64,000 bases of DNA from the IMG/VR virus record IMGVR_UViG_3300042475_004151. The stretch is one strand, 5' to 3'. This DNA comes from a virus. The position numbers were made by a program, and so were the translations under genes. Below are positions 1 to 31,806 of the stretch, in pieces. Within the stretch, counting starts at the first letter, position 1. Every line of letters starts with the position of its first letter. Below the pieces are notes generated by a model that saw only the letters and a program-made list of their open reading frames with translations, was not told where the DNA came from and searched no databases.

Positions 1-197
1 TAGTCTCTAAAGTCTGCGGTTAATAATTTAACTAGAGTTTCTTGTAGTGAAGGATATTTCTGTAATATGAATTCTAATGGATTAGATTCATAAGTTAGTT
101 CTTGAGGAGCAGGAGCAGTAGTAACATCCAATTGTTGATCTATTACTTCATCTTCTACTTCTTTAAGTGGTTTAGATCTTAATATTTTAATCTTCAT
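1..197 (-). CDS. Hypothetical protein, truncated by left window edge (MKIKILRSKPLKE...)
   Basis: ATG at 197-195, frame open to the window edge; not in the ORF track. Confidence 0.7.
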   Translation of the reverse strand, partial: MKIKILRSKPLKEVEDEVIDQQLDVTTAPAPQELTYESNPLEFILQKYPSLQETLVKLLTADFRD

Positions 198-543
198 ATT
201 CGTTATCTAATTTGTGATATCCTTTATTGGCTTGTGAAATATAATTTTCAGAATTGGTGATATGATCTTGAATCCATCCAGGAATATCAAATTCTTCATT
301 TCCTATTTTACTCATTAGTTCTGAAGCAGCTCCTATAATAGATTTTAAACTTGATTGAGCCATAGATACTTCATGGTCTTCACCTTCTTTAGCTACAATT
401 TTAGCTTGTAATTCATCAGGTAAATCTTTTTGTCCACCTTTTAATTCAGGATTATCATCATGTTTGTCAGTGAATGTAGCTTCATCTATTTCTTTAATGG
501 CTTGTTGTAATCGCCAGTTATGCATACTAAAATTGTCTTTCAT
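187..543 (-). CDS. Hypothetical acidic protein, candidate internal head protein
   Basis: Track ORF 187..684 re-started at ATG 543 (MKDNFSMHNWRLQQAIKE), which removes the overlap with 545..913. Confidence 0.65.
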   Translation of the reverse strand: MKDNFSMHNWRLQQAIKEIDEATFTDKHDDNPELKGGQKDLPDELQAKIVAKEGEDHEVSMAQSSLKSIIGAASELMSKIGNEEFDIPGWIQDHITNSENYISQANKGYHKLDNEYED

Positions 544-544
544 A

Positions 545-913
545 TTATTTTGTTTTACCCCAAGTTTTTCCTTTACCTTTTTTCTTACATCCAGCAGGTG
601 TTGGTCTACATGATGGGTATTTTGATCTTTTTTCGCCTTCTTTTCTTCCACAAGATTTATATCCTCCGTTTCCATCAGGAGCATTACAATCTACCCAACC
701 AGTTTCTTTACCTTTAGGACCAGAACGTTTAAACCATTTATGTAATGATTCATCTTCTTTTAAATCTTTCCAAATGTCACCTTTACGGCATCTAACAATA
801 GCTCCTGATTTATAAGCAGATGGTTTATCATAACGTCTATCAGCTATACGATGGCATCTATCTTTTTTCTTTTCAAGAAGTACCTCAATCAATATGTCTA
901 TTAGACGAATCAT
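545..913 (-). CDS. Small basic Cys-containing protein with leader MIRLIDILIE
   Basis: ORF abuts its neighbours; two Lys/Arg/Gly/Cys-rich modules. Confidence 0.7.
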   Translation of the reverse strand: MIRLIDILIEVLLEKKKDRCHRIADRRYDKPSAYKSGAIVRCRKGDIWKDLKEDESLHKWFKRSGPKGKETGWVDCNAPDGNGGYKSCGRKEGEKRSKYPSCRPTPAGCKKKGKGKTWGKTK

Positions 914-1452
914 TATGCTAATAATTTAGTTATATAGTTTTTAACTTCACCACCCTTAACAGCTGTTAATGCTGCTTCTAAAGTAGCTAAAGATATTTCT
1001 TTTGATTGTAAAGCTTTTACAGCTGTAGCACCTGATGCTATAAGTAAAATAGCTATAATGACATGAAATATAAAACTAGAAATCTTTTTAGCTTTATTTT
1101 CATCTTTAACAAATTTTTTAACAACTAACTCAATTGGTTTCATATATAAATGATGTAATTCATCTGCTATACGACTCATTTGAGCAAAATATTTATCTGC
1201 CTCGTTTTGATCAGTTGGTTTAGTACCTATTGTTCTTTTAACAATAGAAGATAAAGATTTACCTAAACGAGCTACTATACCTAGAATAGCAGGTAATGCT
1301 AAAGCTATACTAGCTGTAGTTACAATACCTTCTTTTTGTTCTGTAGCTTTATCTTCAATAGCATCTTGTACACTATCAATAAAAGCACTCATTTGAGGTT
1401 TTACTTGAGCTATAAAACTTGATACTTCGTCTTCTTTAATTCTAATTTTCAT
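913..1452 (-). CDS. Hypothetical protein with two hydrophobic segments
   Basis: ORF; ASIALALPAILGIVA and FIFHVIIAILLIASG. Confidence 0.7.
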   Translation of the reverse strand: MKIRIKEDEVSSFIAQVKPQMSAFIDSVQDAIEDKATEQKEGIVTTASIALALPAILGIVARLGKSLSSIVKRTIGTKPTDQNEADKYFAQMSRIADELHHLYMKPIELVVKKFVKDENKAKKISSFIFHVIIAILLIASGATAVKALQSKEISLATLEAALTAVKGGEVKNYITKLLA

Positions 1453-1453
1453 A

Positions 1454-1741
1454 CTATTTGATTATACGTGCTGTTCTATTTTTTAGATTTTTAAGTATAT
1501 CTCTAAATTGAGCTAATTCAGAATCTTTAGGTGCTTTATCTAAATAATCAACTAAATCATCAAGTCTATTATATAAAAACTTAGGATCAACATCATATTT
1601 AACATCCCATTCATGTCTACCTGTTTCAGGATCAATTTTAGTTAAAGTAGTTTTAACACCAGTAGTTGGATCAGTAACAGTTTTACCAATCTCCTCTTCA
1701 GCAATTTCTTTAACTATATTTTTTAAATCAGATTTTTTCAT
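1454..1741 (-). CDS. Hypothetical protein (leader MKKSDLKNIVKE)
   Basis: ORF; leader shared with 1741..2184. Confidence 0.7.
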   Translation of the reverse strand: MKKSDLKNIVKEIAEEEIGKTVTDPTTGVKTTLTKIDPETGRHEWDVKYDVDPKFLYNRLDDLVDYLDKAPKDSELAQFRDILKNLKNRTARIIK

Positions 1742-2184
1742 TAGTCTTTAGTTACATCTTTTAATTCATCAACTACATCTTTAGTAGCTTTTTTATTTTT
1801 CATGTATTCTTGTACTTTAGATAAAGTTTCTTCTTTCATTTTTCTGTAAGCTTCAGCAGCTACTTTAACTTCATCTTTTTTCTTATCACGCTCAGCTAAT
1901 AGTTTTTCAGCTAATTTTTTAGCTTTAACTTCTTTAGTGAATACACCTTTTATATCTTCTACATTTAAACCGCCTTTAACTTGGTTAGCGAAATAAGCGA
2001 CATCTTTACACTCAAAGCAAATATCGTCTATAGTAGCGCTGGTAGATGGTTTTTCAACCACCCAAAATGCACCTACCTCGTCAGTTTCAGGAGAAAATGC
2101 TTCATTAATTATATCTTCTTCAATCTCAGGTTTTACTTCTTCGATTGCTTCTCTGATTAGTTGTTTTAATTCAGATTTTTTCAT
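1741..2184 (-). CDS. Hypothetical protein (leader MKKSELKQLIRE)
   Basis: ORF; stop/start overlaps with both neighbours. Confidence 0.7.
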   Translation of the reverse strand: MKKSELKQLIREAIEEVKPEIEEDIINEAFSPETDEVGAFWVVEKPSTSATIDDICFECKDVAYFANQVKGGLNVEDIKGVFTKEVKAKKLAEKLLAERDKKKDEVKVAAEAYRKMKEETLSKVQEYMKNKKATKDVVDELKDVTKD

Positions 2185-2444
2185 TTTTTATATATTTTTA
2201 ATTTTAAATTTCCTGCGCCTTTTATTGTTCTATGCCACACATGTCGTGGTATAAATATTGGTTGGATCATAGACATTGGTAACTGGTTATCAAGTTGTAT
2301 TAACCAATTAGTATGTTCTATAGCTTCAACCAATCTATTTTCATCATCTCGATGCCACATTAATTCTATAGGATCAATGTTTTCATCAAATTCCCTAATT
2401 ATATATTCATCTGTCACAACTAAGTCCACATAAGGTTGACTCAT
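2181..2444 (-). CDS. Small cupin-like protein
   Basis: WHRDxExR and IFIPRHVWHRTIKG match the two cupin metal-binding motifs. Confidence 0.6.
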   Translation of the reverse strand: MSQPYVDLVVTDEYIIREFDENIDPIELMWHRDDENRLVEAIEHTNWLIQLDNQLPMSMIQPIFIPRHVWHRTIKGAGNLKLKIYKK

Positions 2445-2446
2445 TA

Positions 2447-2764
2447 TTATTTATTTTCTATTAATAATTCACCTAATACCTCTAAACGTCCCATTTCAGT
2501 TTGAAATTCATTTTGAGACATATCTAATGAAATACTTTTTAAAGTTTTATTAAATTCCTCTTTAGCTATTTCTTTATCTAATTTACCATCCGCTGCTTTT
2601 TTGTAATATGGTAATTTAACTTTGTAGTGCTTATAAGTTAATAAAGATAATCCACCAGCTTCTTGAGTAGTGTCAGCAATTTTTTCAGCACCTTTTAGTC
2701 TAGTACTAGCAAAATCTTCAATACTTTCTTTTACTTCTTTTAATATGTTTATTAGTTTTATCAT
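2447..2764 (-). CDS. Hypothetical protein (leader MIKLINILKE)
   Basis: ORF re-started at ATG 2764, just after the stop of 2766..3413. Confidence 0.65.
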   Translation of the reverse strand: MIKLINILKEVKESIEDFASTRLKGAEKIADTTQEAGGLSLLTYKHYKVKLPYYKKAADGKLDKEIAKEEFNKTLKSISLDMSQNEFQTEMGRLEVLGELLIENK

Positions 2765-2765
2765 A

Positions 2766-3413
2766 TTACCAAAATCCACTAAATGTTGTTTTGAATCCTA
2801 ATAATTTAGCATAGCGAGGTAAACGACAACTCCAATATGATGCTTTGGTTCTGTCTTTTTTCTGTGGACAATTATGGCGTTTAGAAAACGCTTGTCTTGC
2901 TTTAGGATTGTTGAGCTTTGCTCTTAATCCTCCACCTGCCATTCCAAATGATACTTTTTTTATTTTATCTTTATCCTTAACATACACATAGAATTTTTTA
3001 GCACCACCACGTTTAGGTTTACCTATAGCAGGTTGTTTTTTTTCTTCTTCTAAAGCTTCTATTAAAAATTCCTCAGTCAGAGGTAAATCTAATGGAACCA
3101 TTATATCATTATACATTCCAAACTTACCAATATCTGTATTATCAAAATAATACTTATCAGCTTCACATAATTGTAAGCGTTTAGATTCATATAATCCTCT
3201 AGCTTCAACAAATAATTTTAAAAACATTGCTGATTGAGGACGATAAATTGATTCATGAAGTGGTAAATTACTTTCTATATGATAAAACATACCTTCAGAA
3301 AGGAAAATTGGTTCTTTATTTTCAGTTATGTTAAGTTTAGGACCATGATTATGTTCTTTTCCTACATAATCAATGATCTTAGCTATATGTTCTGATAGTT
3401 GTATTGAGTTCAT
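2766..3413 (-). CDS. Phage protein with basic C-terminal domain
   Basis: ORF; KKFYVYV..KKVSFG..FSKRHNC..YWSC motif recalled from large-phage proteins. Confidence 0.65.
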   Translation of the reverse strand: MNSIQLSEHIAKIIDYVGKEHNHGPKLNITENKEPIFLSEGMFYHIESNLPLHESIYRPQSAMFLKLFVEARGLYESKRLQLCEADKYYFDNTDIGKFGMYNDIMVPLDLPLTEEFLIEALEEEKKQPAIGKPKRGGAKKFYVYVKDKDKIKKVSFGMAGGGLRAKLNNPKARQAFSKRHNCPQKKDRTKASYWSCRLPRYAKLLGFKTTFSGFW

Positions 3414-3440
3414 TATTTATTAATAGTAAAGTTAATGGGA

Positions 3441-3773
3441 TTACTTTAATTTTATTGTTGTATCTTTTTGTAATTTCATATCAAAAGTAAGTATTGTTAC
3501 TCCTGGTTCAAAATATTTTTTATTAACCCATATTTCTTTTATTGAGCCTATATAATCAACTTTAAACGGAATATTTTTACTTGTTAAAAGTTCATTTACA
3601 ATTTTATAACGTGGACTTTTATTTTTAGGTTTTCTTTCAATCCAAACAGAATCACCTACATTAAACCAAATATCAAATCCCCATTCACTTAAAGTATCAA
3701 TATCATTTTGATTTAGTTTATTAGTTTTAACTTCATTTATTAATGATTCTTTTAAAATGTCTATTAGTTTCAT
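3441..3773 (-). CDS. Hypothetical protein (leader MKLIDILKE)
   Basis: ORF re-started at ATG 3773. Confidence 0.6.
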   Translation of the reverse strand: MKLIDILKESLINEVKTNKLNQNDIDTLSEWGFDIWFNVGDSVWIERKPKNKSPRYKIVNELLTSKNIPFKVDYIGSIKEIWVNKKYFEPGVTILTFDMKLQKDTTIKLK

Positions 3774-3774
3774 A

Positions 3775-4101
3775 TTAATAAGGTTTTGTAGTAGTTGCTT
3801 TAGGTACAGTTTGGAATTCAACTACACCTTCTATGTTTTTAATCTGGTCAATAATTTTATTAATACCAGCTTTAGTATCACTACCTAATGAATGGGTATC
3901 AATTTTAACATCAATTTGTGCCTCATATCTTAACTGATTTTCAGCTGATATGTTAGGTTGAGAAGCTTGTGAATTAACAATTGTAACACCTGGTAATGAA
4001 CGAATAGCAGATAAAATATCTGTTTGTTTCTTTACTTTTGTATTAGTAATTAATTTACCAACTATTTGAAATTGTTTATCTTCAATTATGCGAATCCTCA
4101 T
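3775..4101 (-). CDS. Hypothetical protein (leader MRIRIIE)
   Basis: ORF, coupled to the upstream gene. Confidence 0.65.
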   Translation of the reverse strand: MRIRIIEDKQFQIVGKLITNTKVKKQTDILSAIRSLPGVTIVNSQASQPNISAENQLRYEAQIDVKIDTHSLGSDTKAGINKIIDQIKNIEGVVEFQTVPKATTTKPY

Positions 4102-4652
4102 TAATGTAAAAATTTAAGTTTGTACTTAGTTGATTCAATTAATGATACTACTTCATCAACTTGGTTTTGTATGTATGAATCTTGTGGTAATACGTTACGA
4201 TTTTTTTCAACGTACATACATAACGCTTCAAAATACTTAACTACACTACCTTCATCTTCCATCCATATACTTTCACTTTTATATCCTCTTAAGATACCAT
4301 AACGGCCTTGATATGATTCAATAATACCATCTACTAAACCTACAATTTCATCATAATATGTGTTTAATGCAGAATGAGCAGCAAATGATGGTGTTTGTAA
4401 ATGAAATATATGAGCCTGTGTACGGGAAGCAAAAAGTGTTGACACAAAATTTGCCATCGTATTTGATGGTTCTGGTATTTCAATAGAAATTTCTGGTTGA
4501 TCAGGGTTAATTGTAGAAATATCAAATCTTTCTTTTAATTCAGCAGCGTATAATGCTTTCATGTATTTTTCAGCTGTGTCTGTATCTTTAGAACAGCCAA
4601 CTTTGGCGCCTGTTTCTTTATATACACAATTTCCTTTACGTTTGTATGGCAT
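4101..4652 (-). CDS. Ferritin/Dps-like four-helix protein with basic N-terminal module
   Basis: QAHIFHLQT..FAAHSALNTYYD..DGIIESYQG..YKLKFL pattern of phage Dps-like proteins. Confidence 0.65.
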   Translation of the reverse strand: MPYKRKGNCVYKETGAKVGCSKDTDTAEKYMKALYAAELKERFDISTINPDQPEISIEIPEPSNTMANFVSTLFASRTQAHIFHLQTPSFAAHSALNTYYDEIVGLVDGIIESYQGRYGILRGYKSESIWMEDEGSVVKYFEALCMYVEKNRNVLPQDSYIQNQVDEVVSLIESTKYKLKFLH

Positions 4653-4682
4653 TTTATATAGTTTTTATCCTATATAAATATA

Positions 4683-5258
4683 TTACAATTGCTGTTCACG
4701 TAACTTTTTAATATATTCTTTAACGTTTTTTATTTCATCATCATTAATTTTACCTCCACCCCATGATTCAATTACACCCTGCTCATTTATATATGATTCA
4801 TTTTTAGTTGATAAAAAATTATTAACAGCTTCTTCAAAATCATTAATCATAGCATCTTTATTAGTATTCATCATTGATTTTTCATACTCATTCCACTTGC
4901 CACTAATTTTAATTTTAGTTTCCATATCTACAACACAATCAAAACACATTTTATGTATAGTCCACATTTTCTTATTATACTCATTTATTTTCATTGGATT
5001 GTTACAATGAGGACAAGAGATAGGCATAACAAATAGACGTTTTAAAGTGTCATATTTTGTGACTGTTTGTTTAATACCATTTTTAATAGTCCAAACTTTA
5101 CCTGTATCTTCCCAAATGTCACCTTCTTGATAATCAATATGTTGTTTTGTATAACCTATTTGAGTACCTACAGAACCGCCAGAATTACCTGTAATAATAT
5201 TTCTCATTCTCTGTACATCACGTTTAGAGAATTCTTTTTTTAATTGATTTTCATTCAT
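4683..5258 (-). CDS. Zn-finger-containing hypothetical protein
   Basis: CPHC...CFDC. Confidence 0.6.
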   Translation of the reverse strand: MNENQLKKEFSKRDVQRMRNIITGNSGGSVGTQIGYTKQHIDYQEGDIWEDTGKVWTIKNGIKQTVTKYDTLKRLFVMPISCPHCNNPMKINEYNKKMWTIHKMCFDCVVDMETKIKISGKWNEYEKSMMNTNKDAMINDFEEAVNNFLSTKNESYINEQGVIESWGGGKINDDEIKNVKEYIKKLREQQL

Positions 5259-7219
5259 AAACCTAAATCTTGTAACTGTTTTATTGTGTCAGCAGTTGAT
5301 GTATGATGTATTCCTACACCACCAGCATCTTTCCATCTTTGAATATTATCTGCTCTATCGTCTATTAATATAGCATTTGGTTTTGCAAATTGTTGTTTTT
5401 GTTCAGCTGCTCTTAATATAAGTTTAGTACCAGGCATATTTCTTTTTACCCAAACAAATTTACCTATTTTAGATGACTCATCTCTTGATGGTGCTGATAG
5501 TAATTCAGGATTGTATTTGTCTATATAATTCCATAATTGTTTTCCATCAGGCATCCATTTTAATTTAATCCAAAATGCAGCACCTGCTTTTTGAATAGGT
5601 TCCCAAAATTGTTTAGGATCAGTACTAAAACTAGCTTCTGTACCAGTTAGATCTTTATATCCTTTATCAAAATCAACTAATACACCATCCATATCACAGT
5701 ATATCTTATATTCTTTATTTTCAGTTTTAACTGCTTCAAATATCTCAGGTTTATATTGACCAAATTGTCTTAATAAAACACCAGCGGCGGCATTAGCTTC
5801 ATTCTCAATTGGTGAACCTGTTGCCCCATCATCTTGTGTTAATGGTTTTAATTCAGCTTGTTTACGATGTACTAATTCATGAGCTAATGTGCGTAAAATA
5901 TCAGCTGTCATTCTTGATCCTCTAACAACTAATAATTTACCTGTGTCTGGTCTGTAAGAACCTAATGAATGCATTTGTTTAGCTACATCTTCATCATCTG
6001 TAAATTCAATTTCAGGTATATCTTGTAATTCAAGTGCTTTAGTGGCAAAATCTATAAAATCACTTACTATATCTGTTTCATTTTCTTCTAGTCCTGCTTT
6101 ATTTAATTTAGAGTAATATTTTGGATCTTCACCTAAATGAGCTAAAGCTATTTTTTTAGCTATTTTTTCATCAGTAGTGTGTTCTTTTTCTGTTTTAATT
6201 CCTTTCTTTAATTCTTCAGGATCAACATCTTTTTCATCTACTGTAGGAACATCAAGTTGAAGTTCAGTTAATGATTTTTGCCACCATTTAATAGTGAATA
6301 AATCTTCTTCAACATTAATCGGTATATTATGTTTAGATAAATATTTAAGTACTTGCTCACGCTGTGTCGGACTATCTCCTAAATTAGGAATCAACATACG
6401 TCTTTCTTGTCCGTCAAATGCATGTTGAGAATATTCAAATGGTATTAATAATGTATTAAGAAAGTTTTCTATTTTTGGAGTTAATTTATAAGGTACTCTT
6501 ATAATTAATTGACCATCTTGTTGATTTTCTTGTAATTGGTCAATACTTAATACTGGTATTCCTAATATATTGAGTATATCATCAAAATCACCTTTCTGAA
6601 TTACTACATCAGGAAAACATCCTTTAAGTAATTCAATATTGTTTAAATATTCATTTTTAGCTTTTGAATACTCAGTTGATTCTTTATCTGGAGTTGATCT
6701 TATTTGTAGTACTGATTGTTTTATTTTATCTATTACTTCACGAACTTGAGTTCCTGATAGTCTTTTATTTTGTGATACTACTTTTTCATTAACAGATATA
6801 GGCATTACTCTTGTACCAAATGCTTTTTGTAATGAAACAAAGTATTGTTGATCTTCAACTTCTTCTTTAGCGCCAGCTACATACGCTATTAGTTCTAAGT
6901 CATTATCCATTCTAGAAAAAATATCTTTAATTGGAGAAGCATTTTTAGATACTTCAACAGAAACTTTAGCCATAGGTGAAGCTGCTAAATATAAGTCCCA
7001 AATACGTTTACTCATACTTGCTGTTATACCATCACGTTCTTTTTGTCCAATTAAAACTATTACTTTAGTAACATATGATCTTGAAGCTAAATCTTTCATA
7101 GACTCATAATGTCCTTCATGTGGTGGTTTAAATCCACCTGGATAGAAACAAATAGCTGGTGGTGTAGCATTTTCACCTTCCTCGTTTAGTTCACTTAGTA
7201 TAGTATTTAGATCAATCAT
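5255..7219 (-). CDS. Multidomain protein: HIGH-type nucleotidyltransferase, small helical domain, HExxH zincin and HAD 5'(3')-deoxyribonucleotidase-like domain
   Basis: PGGFKPPHEGH; KGIKTEKEHT..AHLGEDPKYY; LRTLAHELVH..ENEANA; IYCDMDGVLVDF..LIDDR. Confidence 0.8.
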   Translation of the reverse strand: MIDLNTILSELNEEGENATPPAICFYPGGFKPPHEGHYESMKDLASRSYVTKVIVLIGQKERDGITASMSKRIWDLYLAASPMAKVSVEVSKNASPIKDIFSRMDNDLELIAYVAGAKEEVEDQQYFVSLQKAFGTRVMPISVNEKVVSQNKRLSGTQVREVIDKIKQSVLQIRSTPDKESTEYSKAKNEYLNNIELLKGCFPDVVIQKGDFDDILNILGIPVLSIDQLQENQQDGQLIIRVPYKLTPKIENFLNTLLIPFEYSQHAFDGQERRMLIPNLGDSPTQREQVLKYLSKHNIPINVEEDLFTIKWWQKSLTELQLDVPTVDEKDVDPEELKKGIKTEKEHTTDEKIAKKIALAHLGEDPKYYSKLNKAGLEENETDIVSDFIDFATKALELQDIPEIEFTDDEDVAKQMHSLGSYRPDTGKLLVVRGSRMTADILRTLAHELVHRKQAELKPLTQDDGATGSPIENEANAAAGVLLRQFGQYKPEIFEAVKTENKEYKIYCDMDGVLVDFDKGYKDLTGTEASFSTDPKQFWEPIQKAGAAFWIKLKWMPDGKQLWNYIDKYNPELLSAPSRDESSKIGKFVWVKRNMPGTKLILRAAEQKQQFAKPNAILIDDRADNIQRWKDAGGVGIHHTSTADTIKQLQDLGL

Positions 7220-7941
7220 TTAATAAATTCTTTTACTTTAGTAACAGCTGTAGATGCTGGTGTAAATTTTGGTTTTTGTTTAAGTGCTGATTTGATATCT
7301 TTATTTATTTGTTCAACATCAGCTTTTGATTTAGCTTGTTCTTCAGGTGTTTTTGGTTTACCTTTTGCTTTTGATGTGTCAAAAAATCTACGTTTAATTT
7401 CATTTTCATCAAAATCAATTTCAGCGTCTTTAGGATCATTGTTAATGATAACTAAATTATCACCAAATGCTTGTTGATATGTTTCAATATTATTACTAAT
7501 ATCTCTCCAGGTTCTTAAAACAATACCAGGCATTAATGAACGATCTCTATTAGCATTACGTTCAAGTGATGTTATAGGAGATACATAAATCATAATCATC
7601 ATTGTCTCATATCCTAGTGTTTCTAGTTCTTCTTTCTTTTTGAGAAGTGGTCTAGAAGCCGCTCCAGTACCGTCAATAATAACATCGTTAAGATTAGATA
7701 ATACATCCGTGTATTTTTCTTTAGTTGCTTTTTGAGCTACAGCCATTAATTTAGCTGCTTGAGATAACTGTTCAGGATCAAAATCTTTTTGTTTCATTCC
7801 TATTCCTGATGCTTTAAGTAATTCTTCATAGGTGTCGTCAACATTTATTATTTTAAATTTTGACAATGGTAAAGATTTGGCTATAAATGATTTACCAGCT
7901 CCAGCAGGTCCAGCTAAAAATATTGATTGTGGTGTACTCAT
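7216..7941 (-). CDS. P-loop kinase (zeta-toxin/AAA_33-like)
   Basis: AGPAGAGKS Walker A, INVDD, IIDGTG, SLERNANRDR lid. Confidence 0.75.
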   Translation of the reverse strand: MSTPQSIFLAGPAGAGKSFIAKSLPLSKFKIINVDDTYEELLKASGIGMKQKDFDPEQLSQAAKLMAVAQKATKEKYTDVLSNLNDVIIDGTGAASRPLLKKKEELETLGYETMMIMIYVSPITSLERNANRDRSLMPGIVLRTWRDISNNIETYQQAFGDNLVIINNDPKDAEIDFDENEIKRRFFDTSKAKGKPKTPEEQAKSKADVEQINKDIKSALKQKPKFTPASTAVTKVKEFIK

Positions 7942-8471
7942 TATTTACCTGTTACTACTATTGGTGTGTTAGGAGCAATTAATTCTATTTCTTCTGGTTT
8001 AAGCGAATTGGCTAATTTAGTGTTAAAATCTGCCACATATTTATCTAAATTTAACTCACTTGCTTTATCATAGATTGCTCTTAATTCTTTATTTTTAAAA
8101 CCATCTATATCAATTTCTCCTGAACCATTTAATCCTGGAGATATTTTTACTCCTTCTCCATTTTGAGTTTGTACTATAAGATTATTTCCAACCCATGGTT
8201 TTTTCCATTTATTATCACTTGATTTAATTTGAACTACTAAACCTTTATTTTTATATTTTTTATCCCATAGACTATCACATGATACTCTAATATTTGATGG
8301 TTCAATTTCTAATTTAACTGCTATATTATTAATAAATTTTTCAAGAACAGTAGCAATTTTATCATATAATGCTTGTGTTTCTGATGGTGCTTGAAATGGA
8401 TAAATTTCAGCTTGTCCTTCATTAATTCCAGCTAATTGCCGCATTCTTTTAACTTCATTAAGTTGTTTCAT
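7941..8471 (-). CDS. Hypothetical protein (leader MKQLNEVKRMRQLAGINE)
   Basis: ORF; leader duplicated in 8507..8791. Confidence 0.7.
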   Translation of the reverse strand: MKQLNEVKRMRQLAGINEGQAEIYPFQAPSETQALYDKIATVLEKFINNIAVKLEIEPSNIRVSCDSLWDKKYKNKGLVVQIKSSDNKWKKPWVGNNLIVQTQNGEGVKISPGLNGSGEIDIDGFKNKELRAIYDKASELNLDKYVADFNTKLANSLKPEEIELIAPNTPIVVTGK

Positions 8472-8506
8472 TATATATATAATTTATCTAGTAGTTTAAT
8501 CATTTA

Positions 8507-8791
8507 TTATTTTACAATAGAAGGTAAATAAGTAGCACCTTTATACCATCTTTTAGAAATTTTATGTTCTTCTCCCTTTTTATCTTTCACTGTAAAAGTT
8601 GATGGATTAATTTTAATAACAGTTCCTATCTGTTTTTCACCTGTTGTTCCTATATTTTGTAAAGGTACATTTAGATAAAATTTTACTTTATCTCCAATTT
8701 TTACATCAAGTGTTATAAAATCTGTTTCTTTAGATTCAATAATAATCCCAGCCAATTGCTGCATTCTTTTAACTTCGTTAAGTTGTTTCAT
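8507..8791 (-). CDS. Hypothetical SH3/KOW-like protein (leader MKQLNEVKRMQQLAGIIIE)
   Basis: VKIGDKVKF..GTVIKI beta pattern; late motif upstream. Confidence 0.6.
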   Translation of the reverse strand: MKQLNEVKRMQQLAGIIIESKETDFITLDVKIGDKVKFYLNVPLQNIGTTGEKQIGTVIKINPSTFTVKDKKGEEHKISKRWYKGATYLPSIVK

Positions 8792-8818
8792 TACATTATA
8801 GTTTTATATCAATAAATA

Positions 8819-9301
8819 TTAAATAGTTTTACTTGGGCGCCCACGTTTACCTCCAGTTGGAACATACACAATTGATTTTTTTACGGTTGGGTCCATTTTT
8901 GGTCGACCACGTTTACCGCCAGTTTTGACATAAACTGTAACTTCTTTTTTAAGTGTTGGATCCATTTTTGGTCTACCACGTTTACCTGTGCCTGTACTTG
9001 TACGTATTTTTTCAGCTTTAACTTTACGTTCAAAATATCGAGGATGGATAATAAGTGAATCTAGAAAAAATGCGCGTCTGGCTCCACCTTCATCTACACA
9101 TTCATATCCACCGCCTTTCCATCCTGGTGTGCCATCTTGGTGTGTACGGACATAATAAAATTTACCACCATTATCATTTTCATAATAAGTAGCTGGTAGT
9201 ACTTCAATACCTGATGTGAAGTTTAAATACTCTTGTTCTGTATCTTCTACTACATATGCTTTACGTGGATAGATTTGAGCTGGTACTTCTATTACTTTCA
9301 T
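8819..9301 (-). CDS. Protein with three C-terminal AT-hook motifs
   Basis: GKRGRPK, GKRGRPK, GKRGRPS in a ~21-aa tandem repeat. Confidence 0.75.
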   Translation of the reverse strand: MKVIEVPAQIYPRKAYVVEDTEQEYLNFTSGIEVLPATYYENDNGGKFYYVRTHQDGTPGWKGGGYECVDEGGARRAFFLDSLIIHPRYFERKVKAEKIRTSTGTGKRGRPKMDPTLKKEVTVYVKTGGKRGRPKMDPTVKKSIVYVPTGGKRGRPSKTI

Positions 9302-9325: not shown

Positions 9326-9559
9326 TTAAATATAATCATTAACATCGTAACAATGTCTATCTGGGTAAATTTCAATAATTGAATCTTTATACTCGTTTAA
9401 ATTCCATTCAAACTGTTCACGAGATTTACATGGATAGTCTACAGTTTCAAACTTATTTATTTTTCTACAAATACGAACAATATCATATATATCAATATAA
9501 CCTGTTCTTTGAGCATTAAATAATTGATCATCTGTTTCAAAAGTAAATGTGTAATTCAT
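9326..9559 (-). CDS. Small hypothetical early protein
   Basis: ORF with its own promoter copy and A-rich leader. Confidence 0.7.
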   Translation of the reverse strand: MNYTFTFETDDQLFNAQRTGYIDIYDIVRICRKINKFETVDYPCKSREQFEWNLNEYKDSIIEIYPDRHCYDVNDYI

Positions 9560-9581
9560 AACCTTAATTTTTATTTATATC

Positions 9582-9608
9582 TAAATATAGTGAAGAAATC
9601 GCGGTCAA
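9582..9608 (-). promoter_or_regulatory. Early-type promoter TTGACC-N13-TATATTTA
   Basis: TTGACC GCGATTTCTTCAC TATATTTA; one of 23 copies with a fixed 13-nt spacer. Confidence 0.8.
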
Positions 9609-9833
9609 TCAATTTATACTTACGATATTAATTGTTTCTGATATTAATTTAACTGCTGCTCTATATTTATCTAATTCATTCTCAGTCATTTGTTCAAATA
9701 ATATATATATTTGACACTCTTTTTCATATAACTTATTAAATCTTGGATTTTCAGTGTCCATTGTGTCTAATTCTATTGTTTCTACAAACAAATTAACTGC
9801 GTCTTGTACTAATTGTATGTTCATATCTTTCAT
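9609..9833 (-). CDS. Small hypothetical early protein
   Basis: ORF with its own promoter copy. Confidence 0.7.
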   Translation of the reverse strand: MKDMNIQLVQDAVNLFVETIELDTMDTENPRFNKLYEKECQIYILFEQMTENELDKYRAAVKLISETINIVSIN

Positions 9834-9846
9834 TTTTTATTATAAT

Positions 9847-9873
9847 TAAAGATAGTAAATGAGTCGCGGTCAA
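9847..9873 (-). promoter_or_regulatory. Early-type promoter TTGACC-N13-TATCTTTA
   Basis: TTGACC GCGACTCATTTAC TATCTTTA. Confidence 0.8.
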
Positions 9874-9877
9874 TCAA

Positions 9878-10072
9878 TTAATATCCACGCTCCATTCTCC
9901 ATACTCTTTCGTGATGTTCATGTTCAGAGTATACATTAATATTCAACCATCCCCTATCACCGTATAAATTATTCAAATATTTACGATCTAATTCTGGGTC
10001 AAACGATAGTACAATTTCGCGTTCTTCGTTGGTTAAAATCTCTTTTGTGTCTATTAATTCTTGTGCGTTCAT
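9878..10072 (-). CDS. Small hypothetical early protein
   Basis: ORF with its own promoter copy. Confidence 0.7.
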   Translation of the reverse strand: MNAQELIDTKEILTNEEREIVLSFDPELDRKYLNNLYGDRGWLNINVYSEHEHHERVWRMERGY

Positions 10073-10095
10073 ATCTTTCGCTTTTTTATTATAAT

Positions 10096-10122
10096 TAAAG
10101 ATATGTTGAGAGTCGCGGTCAG
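10096..10122 (-). promoter_or_regulatory. Early-type promoter CTGACC-N13-TATCTTTA
   Basis: CTGACC GCGACTCTCAACA TATCTTTA. Confidence 0.75.
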
Positions 10123-20049: not shown

Positions 20050-21126
20050 TTAGAAGTCTAGTTTAACTCTTAATAATAATTCTTTTGTGAAATCTTTCAC
20101 CAATGGTTTATTTAATTTAGCTACTGCTAATAAATCACCACTATTGTTATATAAACCAACAGTTGTTATGTAAGTTTGAGGATTATATATCAATTGAGTA
20201 TATAGTAAATTACCATTTGAATCAATTACTGTTGGATTAGTTGTATAGTTAGACTCAGCATTTTTAACACGTGTAAAGAAATAACGTGAAGAAATTGTTT
20301 CATAGCTTTGTAAACTAAAGGTAGGATTAGTAGCTGTATCGATCATATCAAATACCATCCTATTATTAAGATTATATGTTTCTCCTAAAGCAGTAAAATA
20401 TGAAGCTACTTGTGATGAACTAAATTCATTGAATATAGCTCCAACTCCTCCTAAAGGACCTGATGATAAAGCTAATGCTCTTGGGTTTAATATTACTAAA
20501 CCTTCATCAGGTAACATTATTCCATAAGATCCACTAACTGTATAGTTAGAAGAAGATGGTACAGTTGTTTGAGTATTACCACTATATGATCCACTTAATA
20601 ATTGATAAACACGTGTTGTACCAATGTAAGTAGATACTGTTGTTACTGTTGAGTCATCAACTAAAGATATTTGATTTGAACCACTTTTAATAGTCAAATA
20701 AAATGATCCTGGATTGAATGATTCTTTGTAACGAGCTCTATTTACTGATATTACAATAATATCTTTTGAGGTATAAGCTGTACCACCAAATTGGAATGAT
20801 GAATTTTCATCTCCATATATTAGTGATCTGAACTGCCCGTATACATCTCTAGTTGGTGTTTTATCAGGTACTAAAGCATTAAAGTAAGATGATCCTGAAC
20901 CACTAATGTGTCCATAAGCGATTGTAAATTGTGAATCAAGAGATTGAGTCACACTTACATCACCTTGAAACACATTAAGGAAGAATTTACCTTGTGCGGT
21001 GTCTATTTCTTGTGCAGACCAGCTGTAAAATGTACTTAATTGTGTTAAGTCATTACTCCACATTGGTGACACTATAGCATCTGAACTAAGTACCTGATCT
21101 TCAGGTTGATAAGCTCCAAAAGACAT
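20050..21126 (-). CDS. Virion structural protein
   Basis: YITTVGLYN..LLAVAKL..RVKLDF C-terminal motif; structural block. Confidence 0.65.
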   Translation of the reverse strand: MSFGAYQPEDQVLSSDAIVSPMWSNDLTQLSTFYSWSAQEIDTAQGKFFLNVFQGDVSVTQSLDSQFTIAYGHISGSGSSYFNALVPDKTPTRDVYGQFRSLIYGDENSSFQFGGTAYTSKDIIVISVNRARYKESFNPGSFYLTIKSGSNQISLVDDSTVTTVSTYIGTTRVYQLLSGSYSGNTQTTVPSSSNYTVSGSYGIMLPDEGLVILNPRALALSSGPLGGVGAIFNEFSSSQVASYFTALGETYNLNNRMVFDMIDTATNPTFSLQSYETISSRYFFTRVKNAESNYTTNPTVIDSNGNLLYTQLIYNPQTYITTVGLYNNSGDLLAVAKLNKPLVKDFTKELLLRVKLDF

Positions 21127-21133
21127 ATGTTAA

Positions 21134-21802
21134 TTAGGTTTTAATTATTGTTAAAGGTATAGTAATTCTAGCTCCACTATCTCTACCTGTCACAGTGATT
21201 GTTGTTGTGATTGTTGATCCAGCAACAGAGTTTGTAGCATATAATGTATTAATAGTAGTAGCTATTAAACTAAATGTTGTTCCAATTTGACTAGCTGATA
21301 GACTAGCTCCACTTGAATTTGGAGATGGATTAGTAATGTTTAAACCTGTTGTGTCAATTCCTGTACCTGTAAATGTACTTAAGAATCTTGAATCAGCCAC
21401 AGTCATCATATATCCAGATGGTTCAAATGTTGAAACAGCACCCAAATAATTTAATGTTTGAGGTGTGATATTAATAGAAGCAGCTTGACGTAATGATACA
21501 GCTGTATATCCAAGATTAAGAACAGGTAATTTAGAAGTACCACGAGGTAAAGTTACTAATTTGTATTTCATCATTTGTGTCTCGTCTACAAATGCTTCTA
21601 ATAAAGGCATTGCTTCAATAGCCTCACCAAAAAAGGCAGAACCTGAGGGATGATTTGGATTATACAAGGTATAATCAATTTCATCATCGGCTAAAGCAAA
21701 TTGAGTAATTTGGAATGATCCATCGTTACGTGCTAACAATTCACGACCCTTTTTTGTTAGGACCGCATCAATTGTTACATATTGGTTATTTAAATACGCC
21801 AT
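21134..21802 (-). CDS. Virion structural protein
   Basis: DAVLTKKGRELLA..ITQFALADDEIDY motif; late motif upstream. Confidence 0.65.
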   Translation of the reverse strand: MAYLNNQYVTIDAVLTKKGRELLARNDGSFQITQFALADDEIDYTLYNPNHPSGSAFFGEAIEAMPLLEAFVDETQMMKYKLVTLPRGTSKLPVLNLGYTAVSLRQAASINITPQTLNYLGAVSTFEPSGYMMTVADSRFLSTFTGTGIDTTGLNITNPSPNSSGASLSASQIGTTFSLIATTINTLYATNSVAGSTITTTITVTGRDSGARITIPLTIIKT

Positions 21803-21830
21803 TTGATAAATGTTGTTTTATATAAATATA

Positions 21831-30922: not shown

Positions 30923-31342
30923 TTATTTAGTTAAGTCTTGTGTTGAAACATTTATCACCAACTCATCATCTTGGTTATTTATAGAATAATTTAATACTAT
31001 GTTAATTACATTCTCGTCTGAGAATGGTTTTACAATTATGTCTCTAATAATGATGTTAGGAACATAAGCGTATATTTCTGTTTCTAATCTAGCAGCTACA
31101 CTATCAAAAGATGTATCTGGTTCGAATAAGGTAGCTCTTAAATCACCCCCAAATTCAGGATCAAATAAACGTTCTCCTTTATTTGTTAGTATATAGTTTA
31201 TTAAATTAGATTTAACTTGTTCTTTAGTAGTGAATGTTTGGTTAAACACACTAGTATCATTGTTAAATAAAACATTAATGCCTATACCTCTAGCTTGTCC
31301 TATATCTAAAGGATTGAGTCTATATGTTGGTCTTTTTAACAT
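30923..31342 (-). CDS. Baseplate wedge subunit (gp25-like)
   Basis: NLINYILTNKGERLFDPEFGGDL..LFE. Confidence 0.85.
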   Translation of the reverse strand: MLKRPTYRLNPLDIGQARGIGINVLFNNDTSVFNQTFTTKEQVKSNLINYILTNKGERLFDPEFGGDLRATLFEPDTSFDSVAARLETEIYAYVPNIIIRDIIVKPFSDENVINIVLNYSINNQDDELVINVSTQDLTK

Positions 31343-31806
31343 TATATTTGTCCTTGTTGTTTCATTTTACTCATTAAACCACTAAAATCAGGTACTACAT
31401 CAATTTTAACAGCATTAATATCTCCTGCTGGTCTAGTACTAGCTAACATTTGATCTACACTTCCTACTACTGTAGGTTCACTCATTGCTGCTCCTCCATT
31501 AAAACCTTGAGCCATATGTGATTGACCATCAATAGCTGTTCTCCATTCACCACCTTGTGCAGTTTCATTTAAAATATCATTTAACACATTATTGTTAGTA
31601 AATGAAGTTGGTTTAAGAGGTTGTGTTGGTCTTGTTGATCTAATTGAATCAACCATTGAATTTTTTACAGAAGATTGTTTAGTCTCTACTACAGTTTGTT
31701 TAGGTACTGGTGTTTCAAGTAATAATCCTAATTCTTCTCTTACTACTTGTTGTACTTCTTCCCGTACAACCTTACGTAATAATTTAATAAATGTGTCTGC
31801 TTTCAT
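31342..31806 (-). CDS. Hypothetical late protein (leader MKADTFIKLLRKVVREE)
   Basis: ORF; ATATTTAT just upstream of the ATG. Confidence 0.7.
   Translation of the reverse strand: MKADTFIKLLRKVVREEVQQVVREELGLLLETPVPKQTVVETKQSSVKNSMVDSIRSTRPTQPLKPTSFTNNNVLNDILNETAQGGEWRTAIDGQSHMAQGFNGGAAMSEPTVVGSVDQMLASTRPAGDINAVKIDVVPDFSGLMSKMKQQGQI

What the first reader, a model, noticed from the sequence alone, without database searches (positions are those of the whole stretch)
1..8791. Interchangeable N-terminal leaders ending in Glu on unrelated proteins: candidate capsid-targeting cargo system
Seen: at least 11 unrelated ORFs begin with one of four short leaders. Type A is M[IK]xL[IN]xIL.E (545, 2447, 3441, 5255). 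Type B is MKKS[DE]LKx[IL][VI][KR]E (1454, 1741; 31342 is similar). Type C is M[KR]I[RK]I..E (1, 913, 3775). Type D is MKQLNEVKRMxQLAGI..E (7941, 8507). Similarity stops at the Glu, and late motifs at 4674 and 8812 lie upstream. Known: T4 internal proteins carry a ~10-aa capsid-targeting sequence that the prohead protease removes after L/I-x-E. Inference: this phage uses portable packaging tags to load a variable set of enzymes and basic proteins into the head for delivery with the DNA.
Basis: partly seen in the sequence, partly recalled or inferred. Interest (0 to 1): 0.82.

Follow-up and report, generated by a model that had tools for sequence, protein, structure and literature searches.

The report
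Swappable head-loading tags on phage proteins
A large uncultured T4-like phage of flavobacteria starts about a dozen unrelated proteins with a few interchangeable short tags that end where its head protease should cut. One tag copies the tail of the head-scaffold protein, so these are most likely clip-off labels that load proteins into the capsid; no experiment has shown this yet.

Summary
On the minus strand of 1-8791, 11-13 of 19 tightly packed genes begin with one of four or five short leader classes, and their bodies are unrelated to each other. Relatives carry the same protein bodies behind different leaders or none. One body is found with leaders D, E, F or none. The kinase is found with none, C or A.

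The phage is a distant T4 relative of the Flavobacterium phage immuto group. Relatives encode a gp21-type head protease, and their gp23-type capsid protein keeps the cut site that aligns with T4's. An [IL]xE with its Glu at residues 6-24 occurs in 15/19 proteins of the cluster against 16/87 elsewhere in the window.

Leader D is the C-terminal tail of the scaffold protein, moved to the N-terminus with xE added. Two scans of viral contigs gave 131 scaffold tails and 93 N-terminal leaders. A leader-D profile hits 1300 protein clusters.

The best reading is T4-style capsid-targeting propeptides, with class D acting by imitating the scaffold. Packaging, cutting and delivery are untested. This scan has already noted the same tag logic, including scaffold-tail mimicry, in several other phage genomes. 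I found no paper describing it.

The parts
3..197 (-). N-terminal 65 residues of a 506-aa protein that runs off the window; loose class C leader MKIKILRSKPLKE (nt 159-197)
   Evidence: The near-identical contig L005 gives the full gene, followed by a 103-aa gene with a class D leader (MKKQINEIKKMQLLAGLITE).
187..543 (-). 118-aa acidic protein with a weak F-like leader MKDNFSMHNW...IDE (nt 481-543)
   Evidence: Start chosen next to the upstream stop. The F profile scores only 2.3 bits here, so class membership is uncertain.
545..913 (-). 122-aa basic, Cys-rich DUF5872-like protein with class A leader MIRLIDILIE (nt 884-913) and a second LLE site at residue 14
   Evidence: Pfam DUF5872 at 25 bits, just below its 27.5-bit cut-off. 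All 117 close homologs in which the conserved core could be located keep an A-type or A-like leader. Mature pI is 10.
913..1452 (-). 179-aa protein with class C leader MKIRIKE (nt 1432-1452)
   Evidence: Its immuto homolog carries a class B leader instead. The identical MKIRIKE leader sits on kinase homologs in other contigs.
1454..1741 (-). 95-aa protein with class B leader MKKSDLKNIVKE (nt 1706-1741)
   Evidence: B/E profile built from other genomes scores 13.3 bits at the start codon.
1741..2184 (-). 147-aa protein with class B leader MKKSELKQLIRE (nt 2149-2184)
   Evidence: B/E profile scores 27.2 bits, E = 1.9e-7, at the start codon. The G001 ortholog also has a B leader.
2181..2444 (-). 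87-aa protein with no class leader; member of the cluster
   Evidence: Orthologs exist in G001 and immuto.
2447..2764 (-). 105-aa protein with class A leader MIKLINILKE (nt 2735-2764)
   Evidence: A profile scores 18.5 bits at the start codon. Orthologs in G001 and immuto keep an A leader.
2766..3413 (-). 215-aa protein whose N-terminus varies between relatives; no clear class
3441..3773 (-). 110-aa protein with class A leader MKLIDILKE (nt 3747-3773)
   Evidence: Read directly from the sequence.
3775..4101 (-). 108-aa protein with class C leader MRIRIIE (nt 4081-4101)
   Evidence: Read directly from the sequence. The class is validated by the kinase family.
4101..4652 (-). 183-aa Dps/ferritin-like protein (DUF5856) with no class leader
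   Evidence: Pfam at 77 bits; PHROG 858.
4673..4681 (-). ATATTTATA promoter-like motif in the gap upstream of gene 4101-4652
   Evidence: 14 of 14 copies in the window lie on the gene strand, many of them in short gaps between genes, some in the early region.
4683..5258 (-). 191-aa conserved protein with no class leader
   Evidence: Orthologs in G001 and immuto.
5255..7219 (-). 654-aa multi-enzyme protein with class A leader MIDLNTILSE (nt 7190-7219). Domains: NMN-adenylyltransferase-like, DUF5661, an HExxH region and a 5'-3' deoxyribonucleotidase. Internal [IL]xE sites at residues 229, 377 and 493 fall at domain borders.
   Evidence: In G001 the deoxyribonucleotidase is a separate gene with its own A leader, which aligns with the internal IFE|A site.
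7216..7941 (-). 241-aa P-loop kinase (zeta-toxin/AAA_33-like), leaderless in this phage
   Evidence: Close homologs carry MKIRIKE (class C, 249 aa) and the G001 ortholog carries a class A leader.
7941..8471 (-). 176-aa protein of unknown fold with class D leader MKQLNEVKRMRQLAGINE (nt 8418-8471)
   Evidence: Homologs carry leaders D, E, F or none, or are fused behind other domains. In the AlphaFold2 model the body is confident and the leader is a detached helix.
8507..8791 (-). 94-aa basic protein with class D leader MKQLNEVKRMQQLAGIIIE (nt 8735-8791)
   Evidence: D profile scores 16.1 bits. The first 16 codons match those of gene 7941-8471 at 45 of 48 bases, and identity stops at xE.
31342..31806 (-). 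154-aa protein in the tail/baseplate module with an E-like N-terminus (MKADTFIKLLRKVVREE...); membership uncertain
   Evidence: B/E profile scores 9.1 bits. An ortholog at the same position in G001 has a similar N-terminus.

Best explanation
The leaders are removable address tags of the T4 capsid-targeting-sequence kind. Each is a short N-terminal helix that draws its protein into the assembling prohead. The phage's gp21-type head protease then cuts it off after [I/L/V]-x-Glu, leaving the mature protein inside the capsid. From there the protein may be injected with the DNA.

Class D works by imitation. It presents the same peptide (R-M/F-Q-K/Q-L-A-G-I-I) that ends the scaffold protein, so it should occupy the scaffold tail's docking site in the prohead. 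That site is most likely the inner face of the capsid protein. Classes A, B/E, C and F probably dock on other core components.

Because the leaders are also conserved at the DNA level within a genome, they double as recombination handles that let leaders and protein bodies be swapped.

Shown here: the modular leaders, the conserved Glu boundary, the lineage's protease and capsid cut site, and the identity of leader D with the scaffold tail. Inferred: docking, cleavage, packaging and delivery.
For: 1. Modularity.
- The body of gene 7941-8471 occurs with leaders D, F, short F or none, or behind another domain with a kept ...LNE|G joint (38 homologs). It occurs with leader E in the complete relative G001.
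- The kinase occurs leaderless (MSTPQAIFLA) or with MKIRIKE placed in front, in homologs 80-97% identical. In G001 it has a class A leader.
- Leaderless forms begin 1-3 residues from the predicted cut.

2. Machinery.
- G001 is 148,581 bp, complete and syntenic. It encodes a Peptidase_S77 (gp21) homolog at 101.8 bits that keeps the GEL-x-HP and G-x-SSRG blocks.
- The capsid protein is gp23-like, 59% identical to that of Flavobacterium phage immuto.
- T4's gp23 maturation site LTE|A aligns with VIE|A in G001 and VSE|A in immuto. The protease's own N-terminal LLIE|T is shared with T4.
- T4 gp21 cuts after L/I-x-E, and 7-20-residue propeptides target proteins into the head (PMC9026906, PMC5694885).

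3. Enrichment. [IL]xE near the N-terminus occurs in 15/19 cluster proteins against 16/87 elsewhere in the window. In G001 the figures are 27/37 against 40/170. The cluster lies directly upstream of the terminase, portal, protease, scaffold and capsid genes in G001.

4. Scaffold mimicry.
- Of 77 tail-bearing ORFs with enough flank, 76 are followed within 600 nt by a gp23-like gene. Of 53 with enough upstream flank, 41 follow a gp21-like gene.
- 73 of 89 tails have [ILV]xE exactly 7 residues before the motif, and 27 of 28 non-tail copies (25 N-terminal, 3 internal) are followed by xE. The peptide is therefore always severable from the rest of the protein.
- The D profile also hits the scaffold C-termini of G001 and immuto.

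5. Breadth. The D profile finds 1300 cluster representatives. In the top 150, 140 of 153 motif copies are N-terminal, and 109 bodies fall into 81 unrelated groups.

6. Structure. In the AlphaFold2 model of 7941-8471, residues 1-20 have pLDDT 51-60 (a helix plus a linker). The body has pLDDT above 90.

7. Head-module link. In immuto a small protein encoded between portal and protease, where T4 has gp67/gp68, carries a class B leader.
Against: - No virion proteomics exist for this phage, for G001 or for immuto. Packaging and cleavage are therefore unobserved.
- The window itself holds no head genes. The protease, scaffold and capsid evidence comes from relatives.
- About 25 tagged genes per genome, including metabolic-looking enzymes (adenylyltransferase-like, deoxyribonucleotidase, kinase), is many more and odder cargo than T4 carries.
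- A few leader-like N-termini lie outside the cluster: G001 20582 among replication genes and 44218 in the early region.
- [IL]xE is a short motif in a Lys/Ile/Glu-rich proteome.
- What the scaffold tail binds is unknown in any T4-type phage.
- Class F and the 31342 gene are weak in this window.
Confidence: 0.65

Rival explanations
1. The tagged proteins are auxiliary core or scaffold components rather than delivered cargo. The leaders bring them into the prohead, but like T4 gp67/gp68 they help build the head and are then degraded or expelled, so nothing is injected.
For: In T4, gp22, gp67 and gp68 are cut into fragments that leave the head (PMC9026906). A class B leader sits on a small protein in the gp67/gp68 position in immuto. 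Several proteins in the cluster are small and acidic.
Against: Many bodies are folded domains or enzymes with few internal cut sites. The bodies are extremely diverse, 81 unrelated groups among 109, which suits accessory cargo better than structural parts. Several are basic and look like DNA binders.
Confidence: 0.12
2. The conserved 5' ends act mainly at the nucleic-acid level, as shared translation-initiation regions or as homology patches for gene shuffling. The encoded peptide would have no targeting role.
For: Within a genome, leader copies are nearly identical in DNA and identity stops sharply at the boundary. The window pair matches at 45 of 48 bases. In G001 the pair matches at 66 of 66 bases, plus about 12 contiguous upstream bases.
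Against: The same peptide is conserved at the C-terminal end of the scaffold, where translation initiation is irrelevant. Between copies and between genomes the peptide is kept through synonymous changes. The tag is almost always followed by xE. Leaderless homologs are evidently expressed without it.
Confidence: 0.08
3. The tags are recognised by the head protease or by another partner, such as the phage's GroEL/GroES or a degradation system. They would serve for timed activation or destruction in the cytoplasm, not for entry into capsids.
For: The [IL]xE boundary fits a protease site. G001 encodes GroES and GroEL.
Against: T4-type proteases act inside the prohead (PMC9026906). The scaffold tail is a head-assembly element sitting between the protease and capsid genes. 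Nothing links the tags to chaperonins.
Confidence: 0.08

Closest known systems
Phage T4 capsid targeting sequence (CTS) on internal proteins IPI, IPII, IPIII and Alt, removed by prohead protease gp21
   Same: - A short N-terminal propeptide shared by otherwise unrelated proteins and ending in L/I-x-Glu.
- A lineage with gp20, gp21, gp22-position and gp23 head genes.
- A capsid-protein cut site that aligns with T4's.
- Variable cargo behind a conserved tag (PMC3012670, PMC9026906).
- T4's MKTYQEFIAE loosely resembles class E (MK-x-TEF..LI-x-E).
   Different: - At least five leader classes instead of one.
- About 12-25 tagged genes per genome, including enzymes and multi-domain proteins.
- No significant sequence similarity to the T4 CTS.
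- One class is a copy of the scaffold's C-terminal tail, which has not been described for T4.
- No experimental evidence here.
SaPI1 CpmB and the phage 80alpha scaffolding protein (competition for one site on the capsid protein)
   Same: [quoted passage not shown] From memory, not checked in the paper's text: it does so through a copy of the scaffold's C-terminal capsid-binding element.
   Different: CpmB is a size-redirecting alternative scaffold of a satellite. Its motif is C-terminal and it is not a cargo tag. Here the motif has moved to the N-terminus of many unrelated proteins and is followed by a protease site.
Encapsulin cargo-loading peptides, and engineered P22 cargo fused to truncated scaffold protein (both cited from general knowledge)
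   Same: A short terminal peptide on diverse cargo docks on the inside of an HK97-fold shell during assembly.
   Different: Those peptides are not cut off by a maturation protease, and the shells carry no DNA. The resemblance is only in how they work; there is no homology.
Propeptides of head and ejection proteins in giant phages phiKZ and SPN3US
   Same: Many internal head proteins are processed by a gp21-related protease after small-x-Glu. Identical N-termini on diverged paralogs were noted as CTS-like (PMC5694885).
   Different: Those propeptides are mostly 100 residues or longer, the cut motif is A/S/G-x-E, and no scaffold-tail copy is reported.

Membership tests
T4-type capsid targeting sequence / internal protein system | The phage encodes a gp21-family (Peptidase_S77) prohead protease | tested here: met
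   Met in relatives. G001 scores 101.8 bits, above the cut-off, and keeps the GEL-x-HP and G-x-SSRG blocks. Immuto has an annotated prohead protease. The window's own head module lies outside the window and could not be fetched.
T4-type capsid targeting sequence / internal protein system | A short (7-20 aa) N-terminal propeptide ending in L/I-x-Glu | tested here: met
   Classes A-D all end in [ILV]-x-E at residues 7-19. Enrichment is 15/19 against 16/87.
T4-type capsid targeting sequence / internal protein system | The same propeptide on otherwise unrelated proteins, with the cargo variable between relatives | tested here: met
   No similarity between protein bodies. Leaders are swapped, gained or lost in homologs.
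T4-type capsid targeting sequence / internal protein system | Sequence homology to the T4 CTS (MKTYQEFIAE) | tested here: inconclusive
   Compared by eye only. There is a loose resemblance to class E. T4 sequences were read from NC_000866.
T4-type capsid targeting sequence / internal protein system | The proteins are present in virions with the propeptide removed | not testable with these tools
   No proteomic data found for immuto or its relatives.
T4-type capsid targeting sequence / internal protein system | The tag alone is enough to package a foreign protein | not testable with these tools
   Needs a reporter-fusion experiment.
Scaffold-tail mimic (works like CpmB / scaffold competition) | The tag shares its sequence with the scaffold protein's terminal capsid-binding element | tested here: met
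   The R[MF]Q[KQ]LAGII motif ends the gene that lies between protease and capsid genes: 76 of 77 are followed by gp23-like genes. The D profile hits the scaffold C-termini of G001 and immuto.
Scaffold-tail mimic (works like CpmB / scaffold competition) | The tag and the scaffold tail bind the same site in the prohead | not testable with these tools
   No complex prediction or structure is available.

The most novel reading that the evidence does not exclude
T4-like phages of aquatic Bacteroidota run a natural plug-and-play cargo-loading system. One tag is the scaffold's own capsid-docking tail moved to the N-terminus and made clip-off by the head protease. More than a thousand unrelated protein families, enzymes included, are addressed into capsids this way and delivered to the next host. 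This would also reveal the docking principle behind T4-type capsid targeting, which has never been resolved.
Probability: 0.45. Interest if true: 0.85.

Novelty: new variant of a known kind. Interest (0 to 1): 0.72.

Why it matters
T4's capsid-targeting sequence is a classic, and it is already used to load foreign proteins into phage heads. What it docks to, and how widespread the principle is, remain open.

This system offers a concrete and testable answer for one tag class: the tag is the scaffold's tail. It also suggests that environmental T4-like phages may package far more, and far more varied, proteins than T4 does. That has three consequences:
- Hundreds of unknown small phage proteins would be recast as candidate injected host-takeover or anti-defence factors.
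- A simple sequence rule would be available for finding them.
- New natural tags would be available for protein encapsidation.

Tried and rejected
An exact 41-mer from the window found only a 4.4-kb IMG/VR contig (L005) and nothing in metagenome contigs.
- Megablast of 1-9000 and tblastn of two cargo proteins against cultured phages found nothing.
- Pfam and PHROGs leave most of the proteins unnamed. PHROGs also gives no name to the G001 scaffold or the small head-module proteins.
- T4's late promoter TATAAATA is not enriched: 33 copies against 26.8 expected. The ATATTTATA motif is strand-specific but not confined to late genes, so I do not use it as evidence of late expression.
- A pairwise N-terminal similarity screen within the window alone was only weakly above controls and noisy. 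Profiles built from other genomes worked better.
- The class F profile is not significant in the window.
- Profiles of classes A, B/E and F found no matching peptide inside the head proteins of G001, immuto or T4, so scaffold mimicry is shown only for class D.
- Foldseek against the PDB gave no match for the 7941-8471 body.
- Co-variation between tail and leader variants (QK against QQ) could not be tested properly, because the fetched loci rarely hold both.
Full report
**What is there**

The window is about 30% G+C and nearly all of its genes lie on the minus strand. Positions 1-9301 hold 19 tightly packed genes, many with overlapping stop and start codons. The finding's coordinates are therefore the low (stop) ends of the genes.

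After correcting three starts to the ATG next to the upstream stop (187-543, 2447-2764, 3441-3773), the N-termini fall into these classes:
- Class A: MIRLIDILIE, MIKLINILKE, MKLIDILKE, MIDLNTILSE.
- Class B: MKKSDLKNIVKE, MKKSELKQLIRE.
- Class C: MKIRIKE, MRIRIIE, and loosely MKIKILRSKPLKE.
- Class D: MKQLNEVKRMRQLAGINE, MKQLNEVKRMQQLAGIIIE.
- A weak F-like case: MKDNFSMHNW...IDE.

With the first 24 residues removed, no two of these proteins are similar (BLASTP, E < 0.01).

A near-identical 4.4-kb IMG/VR contig (L005) extends 3.5 kb past window position 1. It shows that the cluster continues with the full 506-aa gene and another class D gene.

**More than chance**

I built leader profiles only from two other genomes (G001 and immuto, see below). 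Searched against the window's six-frame translation, they score best exactly at these start codons:
- A: 18.5 bits at 2764 and 9.2 at 913.
- B/E: 27.2 bits at 2184 and 13.3 at 1741.
- D: 16.1 bits at 8770 and 6.0 at 8450.

An [IL]xE whose Glu lies at residue 6-24 occurs in 15/19 proteins of the cluster against 16/87 in the rest of the window (Fisher p = 8.6e-7). In the relative G001 the figures are 27/37 against 40/170 (p = 2.3e-8). A few leader-like N-termini do lie elsewhere (G001 20582 and 44218; window 45622 and 31342).

**What phage this is**

No cultured phage matches at the DNA level. A cargo protein led to IMGVR_UViG_3300032313_001465 (G001). This genome is 148,581 bp, has direct terminal repeats, is rated complete, and is syntenic with the window in reverse orientation.
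- G001 encodes a Peptidase_S77 (T4 gp21) protease at 101.8 bits, a T4-type portal and a gp23-type capsid protein.
- Its capsid protein is 59% identical to that of Flavobacterium phage vB_FspM_immuto and more distantly related to many T4-like phages.
- In G001 the tagged genes form one cluster at 94.5-112.6 kb, directly upstream of the terminase, portal, protease, scaffold and capsid genes. A second cluster lies at the genome ends.
- Immuto has the same leaders in the same place.
- The window's own protein occurs on a contig of 167,096 bp, but I could not fetch that contig.

**The protease logic is conserved with T4**

I read T4 sequences from NC_000866.
- T4's gp23 maturation site LTE|A aligns with VIE|A in G001 and VSE|A in immuto, at the same distance from the conserved VQPM block.
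- T4 gp24's LRE|S aligns there too.
- The protease keeps the GEL-x-HP and G-x-SSRG blocks, and shares with T4 its own N-terminal LLIE|T.
- T4's tags are MKTYQEFIAE|A (IPII, IPIII), ...ITE|A (IPI), MELITELFDE (Alt) and MEGLIE|A (gp67).

The literature states that gp21 cuts after L/I-x-E. It also states that 7-20-residue propeptides target proteins into the prohead core, and that T4 relatives carry varied proteins behind CTS-like tags (PMC9026906, PMC5694885, PMC3012670).

**Leaders are modules**

Four protein families show the leaders being swapped, gained or lost.
- Gene 7941-8471. The 38 homologs of this protein share one body (YPFQA...LYDKIA...). It sits behind leader D, behind a 26-residue leader F (MKKADNFDAKQWLVENKITFQSRLNE), behind a short F, behind no leader at all, or behind another domain with the ...SKLNE|G joint kept. 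G001's ortholog carries leader E (MKATEFRKLIREEVRKILTE). Leaderless forms begin 1-3 residues from the predicted cut.
- The kinase 7216-7941 is leaderless here. Homologs 80-97% identical come in two forms, a 241-aa form starting MSTPQAIFLA and a 249-aa form starting MKIRIKE followed by AQQTPQAIFLA. This validates class C, which looked weakest. The G001 ortholog has a class A leader.
- Gene 913-1452 (class C) has an immuto homolog with a class B leader.
- The deoxyribonucleotidase domain is fused at the end of the 654-aa protein here. In G001 it is a separate gene with its own class A leader, and that leader aligns with an internal IFE|A in the fusion. The fusion's three internal [IL]xE-small sites (residues 229, 377, 493) fall at domain borders. 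Three such sites is about what chance would give in a protein this long; only their placement is suggestive.

Not every family shuffles. All 117 close homologs of the DUF5872-like protein in which the core could be located keep an A-type or A-like leader.

**Leader D is the scaffold's tail**

An earlier first-reader note on this genome suggested the link, and I tested it on other genomes.
- The gene between protease and capsid genes ends ...ARFQKLAGII in G001 and ...SRWQKLAGIIK in immuto.
Of these, 93 copies lie at the extreme C-terminus of ORFs mostly 300-470 codons long, 25 are N-terminal and 3 are elsewhere.
- Of 77 tail-bearing ORFs with enough downstream sequence, 76 are followed within 600 nt by a gp23-like gene. 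Of 53 with enough upstream sequence, 41 are preceded by a gp21-like gene. These ORFs are therefore the scaffold genes.
- The MQQLAGII variant, which is the window's type, gave 38 tails and 68 N-terminal copies, plus an unrelated protein family as false hits.
- In 73 of 89 tails an [ILV]xE lies exactly 7 residues before the motif. In 27 of 28 non-tail copies (25 N-terminal, 3 internal) the motif is followed by xE. Whichever side joins the peptide to the rest of the protein carries a protease-type site.
- The 24 N-terminal copies sit on 19 unrelated bodies.
- A leader-D profile searched against 1.84 billion cluster representatives finds 1300 proteins at E <= 0.001. In the top 150, 140 of 153 motif copies are N-terminal, about 148 are followed by xE, and 109 bodies fall into 81 unrelated groups.
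- Among cultured phages only the immuto group has it.

**DNA against peptide**

Within a genome, leader D copies are nearly identical in DNA and identity stops at the xE boundary. The window pair matches at 45 of 48 bases. The G001 pair matches at 66 of 66 bases, plus about 12 contiguous upstream bases. Other copies, and the scaffold tail itself, keep the peptide through synonymous changes. The leaders therefore look both selected as peptides and used as patches for recombination or gene conversion.

**Structure**

AlphaFold2 on an alignment of 26 homologs of 7941-8471 gives a confident body (mean pLDDT 89, above 90 from residue 21). The leader is a low-confidence detached helix (residues 2-13) followed by a linker. 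Foldseek finds no known fold for the body.

**Interpretation**

The best-supported reading (about 0.65) is a much-expanded, multi-class version of T4's capsid targeting sequence. The tags bring proteins into the prohead and the gp21-type protease clips them off after [ILV]-x-Glu.

For class D, the mechanism is imitation of the scaffold's terminal docking peptide. The known principles are that a second protein can compete with a scaffold for one site on the capsid protein (80alpha and SaPI1 CpmB, PMC5644958), and, from general knowledge, that scaffold C-termini bind coat proteins and that encapsulins load cargo through terminal peptides.

The docking partner, the cleavage, the packaging and the delivery are all inferred.

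The rivals:
- The tagged proteins are core-building proteins that are later degraded rather than delivered.
- The conserved 5' ends have a purely DNA- or RNA-level role.
- The tags serve protease- or chaperone-linked regulation outside the capsid.

The second and third rivals are disfavoured mainly because the scaffold tail keeps the same peptide at a C-terminus and the xE boundary is invariant.

**Novelty**

The principle is known from T4. Four things were not found in the papers I could search: the leader families themselves, their number per genome, the scaffold-tail origin of one class, and its spread over about 1300 protein clusters. Pfam has no model for the leaders.

This scan has already reported CTS-like leaders and scaffold-tail mimic tags in several other uncultured T4-like genomes. 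Within the scan, then, this is a further instance rather than a first sighting.

Noticed in passing
window 8819-9301 (-): A 160-aa basic protein whose C-terminal half holds three tandem copies of a GGKRGRPKMDPT-type unit (AT-hook-like GRP cores). Its G001 homolog lies in the early region, not in the leader cluster.
   Followed up: partly
window 9560-10120 (-): Three consecutive small genes (9326-9559, 9609-9833, 9878-10072) are each preceded, about 45 nt upstream, by the G+C-rich word TGACCGCGA. This is unusual in a 30% G+C genome and could be a shared operator or promoter element.
   Followed up: no
window, 14 sites (e.g. 4673, 10393, 21821, 28229, 31810, 35964, 38424, 54521): ATATTTATA occurs 14 times, always on the gene strand, and many copies lie in short gaps 20-35 nt upstream of start codons. 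It is found in both the structural and the early regions, so it is a candidate general promoter element. The T4 late box TATAAATA is not enriched.
   Followed up: partly
window 5255-7219 (-): A 654-aa protein joins an NMN-adenylyltransferase-like domain, DUF5661, an HExxH region and a 5'-3' deoxyribonucleotidase. In G001 these are two genes, and in immuto a 907-aa protein plus a separate nucleotidase. It is a possible protease-cut polyprotein.
   Followed up: partly
G001 108719-109009 (L012:8719-9009): A 96-aa protein carries two leaders in tandem: class B (MKKPELKQIIKEEIQKILSE) followed directly by class D (QQKRMQKLAGINE).
   Followed up: no
proteins P0168, P0188, P0274, P0263: Long proteins (765-1005 aa) carry a leader D copy at the N-terminus and another near the C-terminus or internally. 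They may be multi-cargo polyproteins or wrongly merged gene calls.
   Followed up: no
loci L150, L165, L170 and 8 others: An unrelated family of 430-680-aa proteins contains ...GRATSMQQLAGIMSQRGG... internally. This is a chance match to the motif scan, not part of the tag system.
   Followed up: no
G001 21006-22919 (L008): The relative encodes its own GroES- and GroEL-like pair. A 112-aa gene with an E-class leader (20582) sits just upstream, outside the main leader clusters.
   Followed up: no
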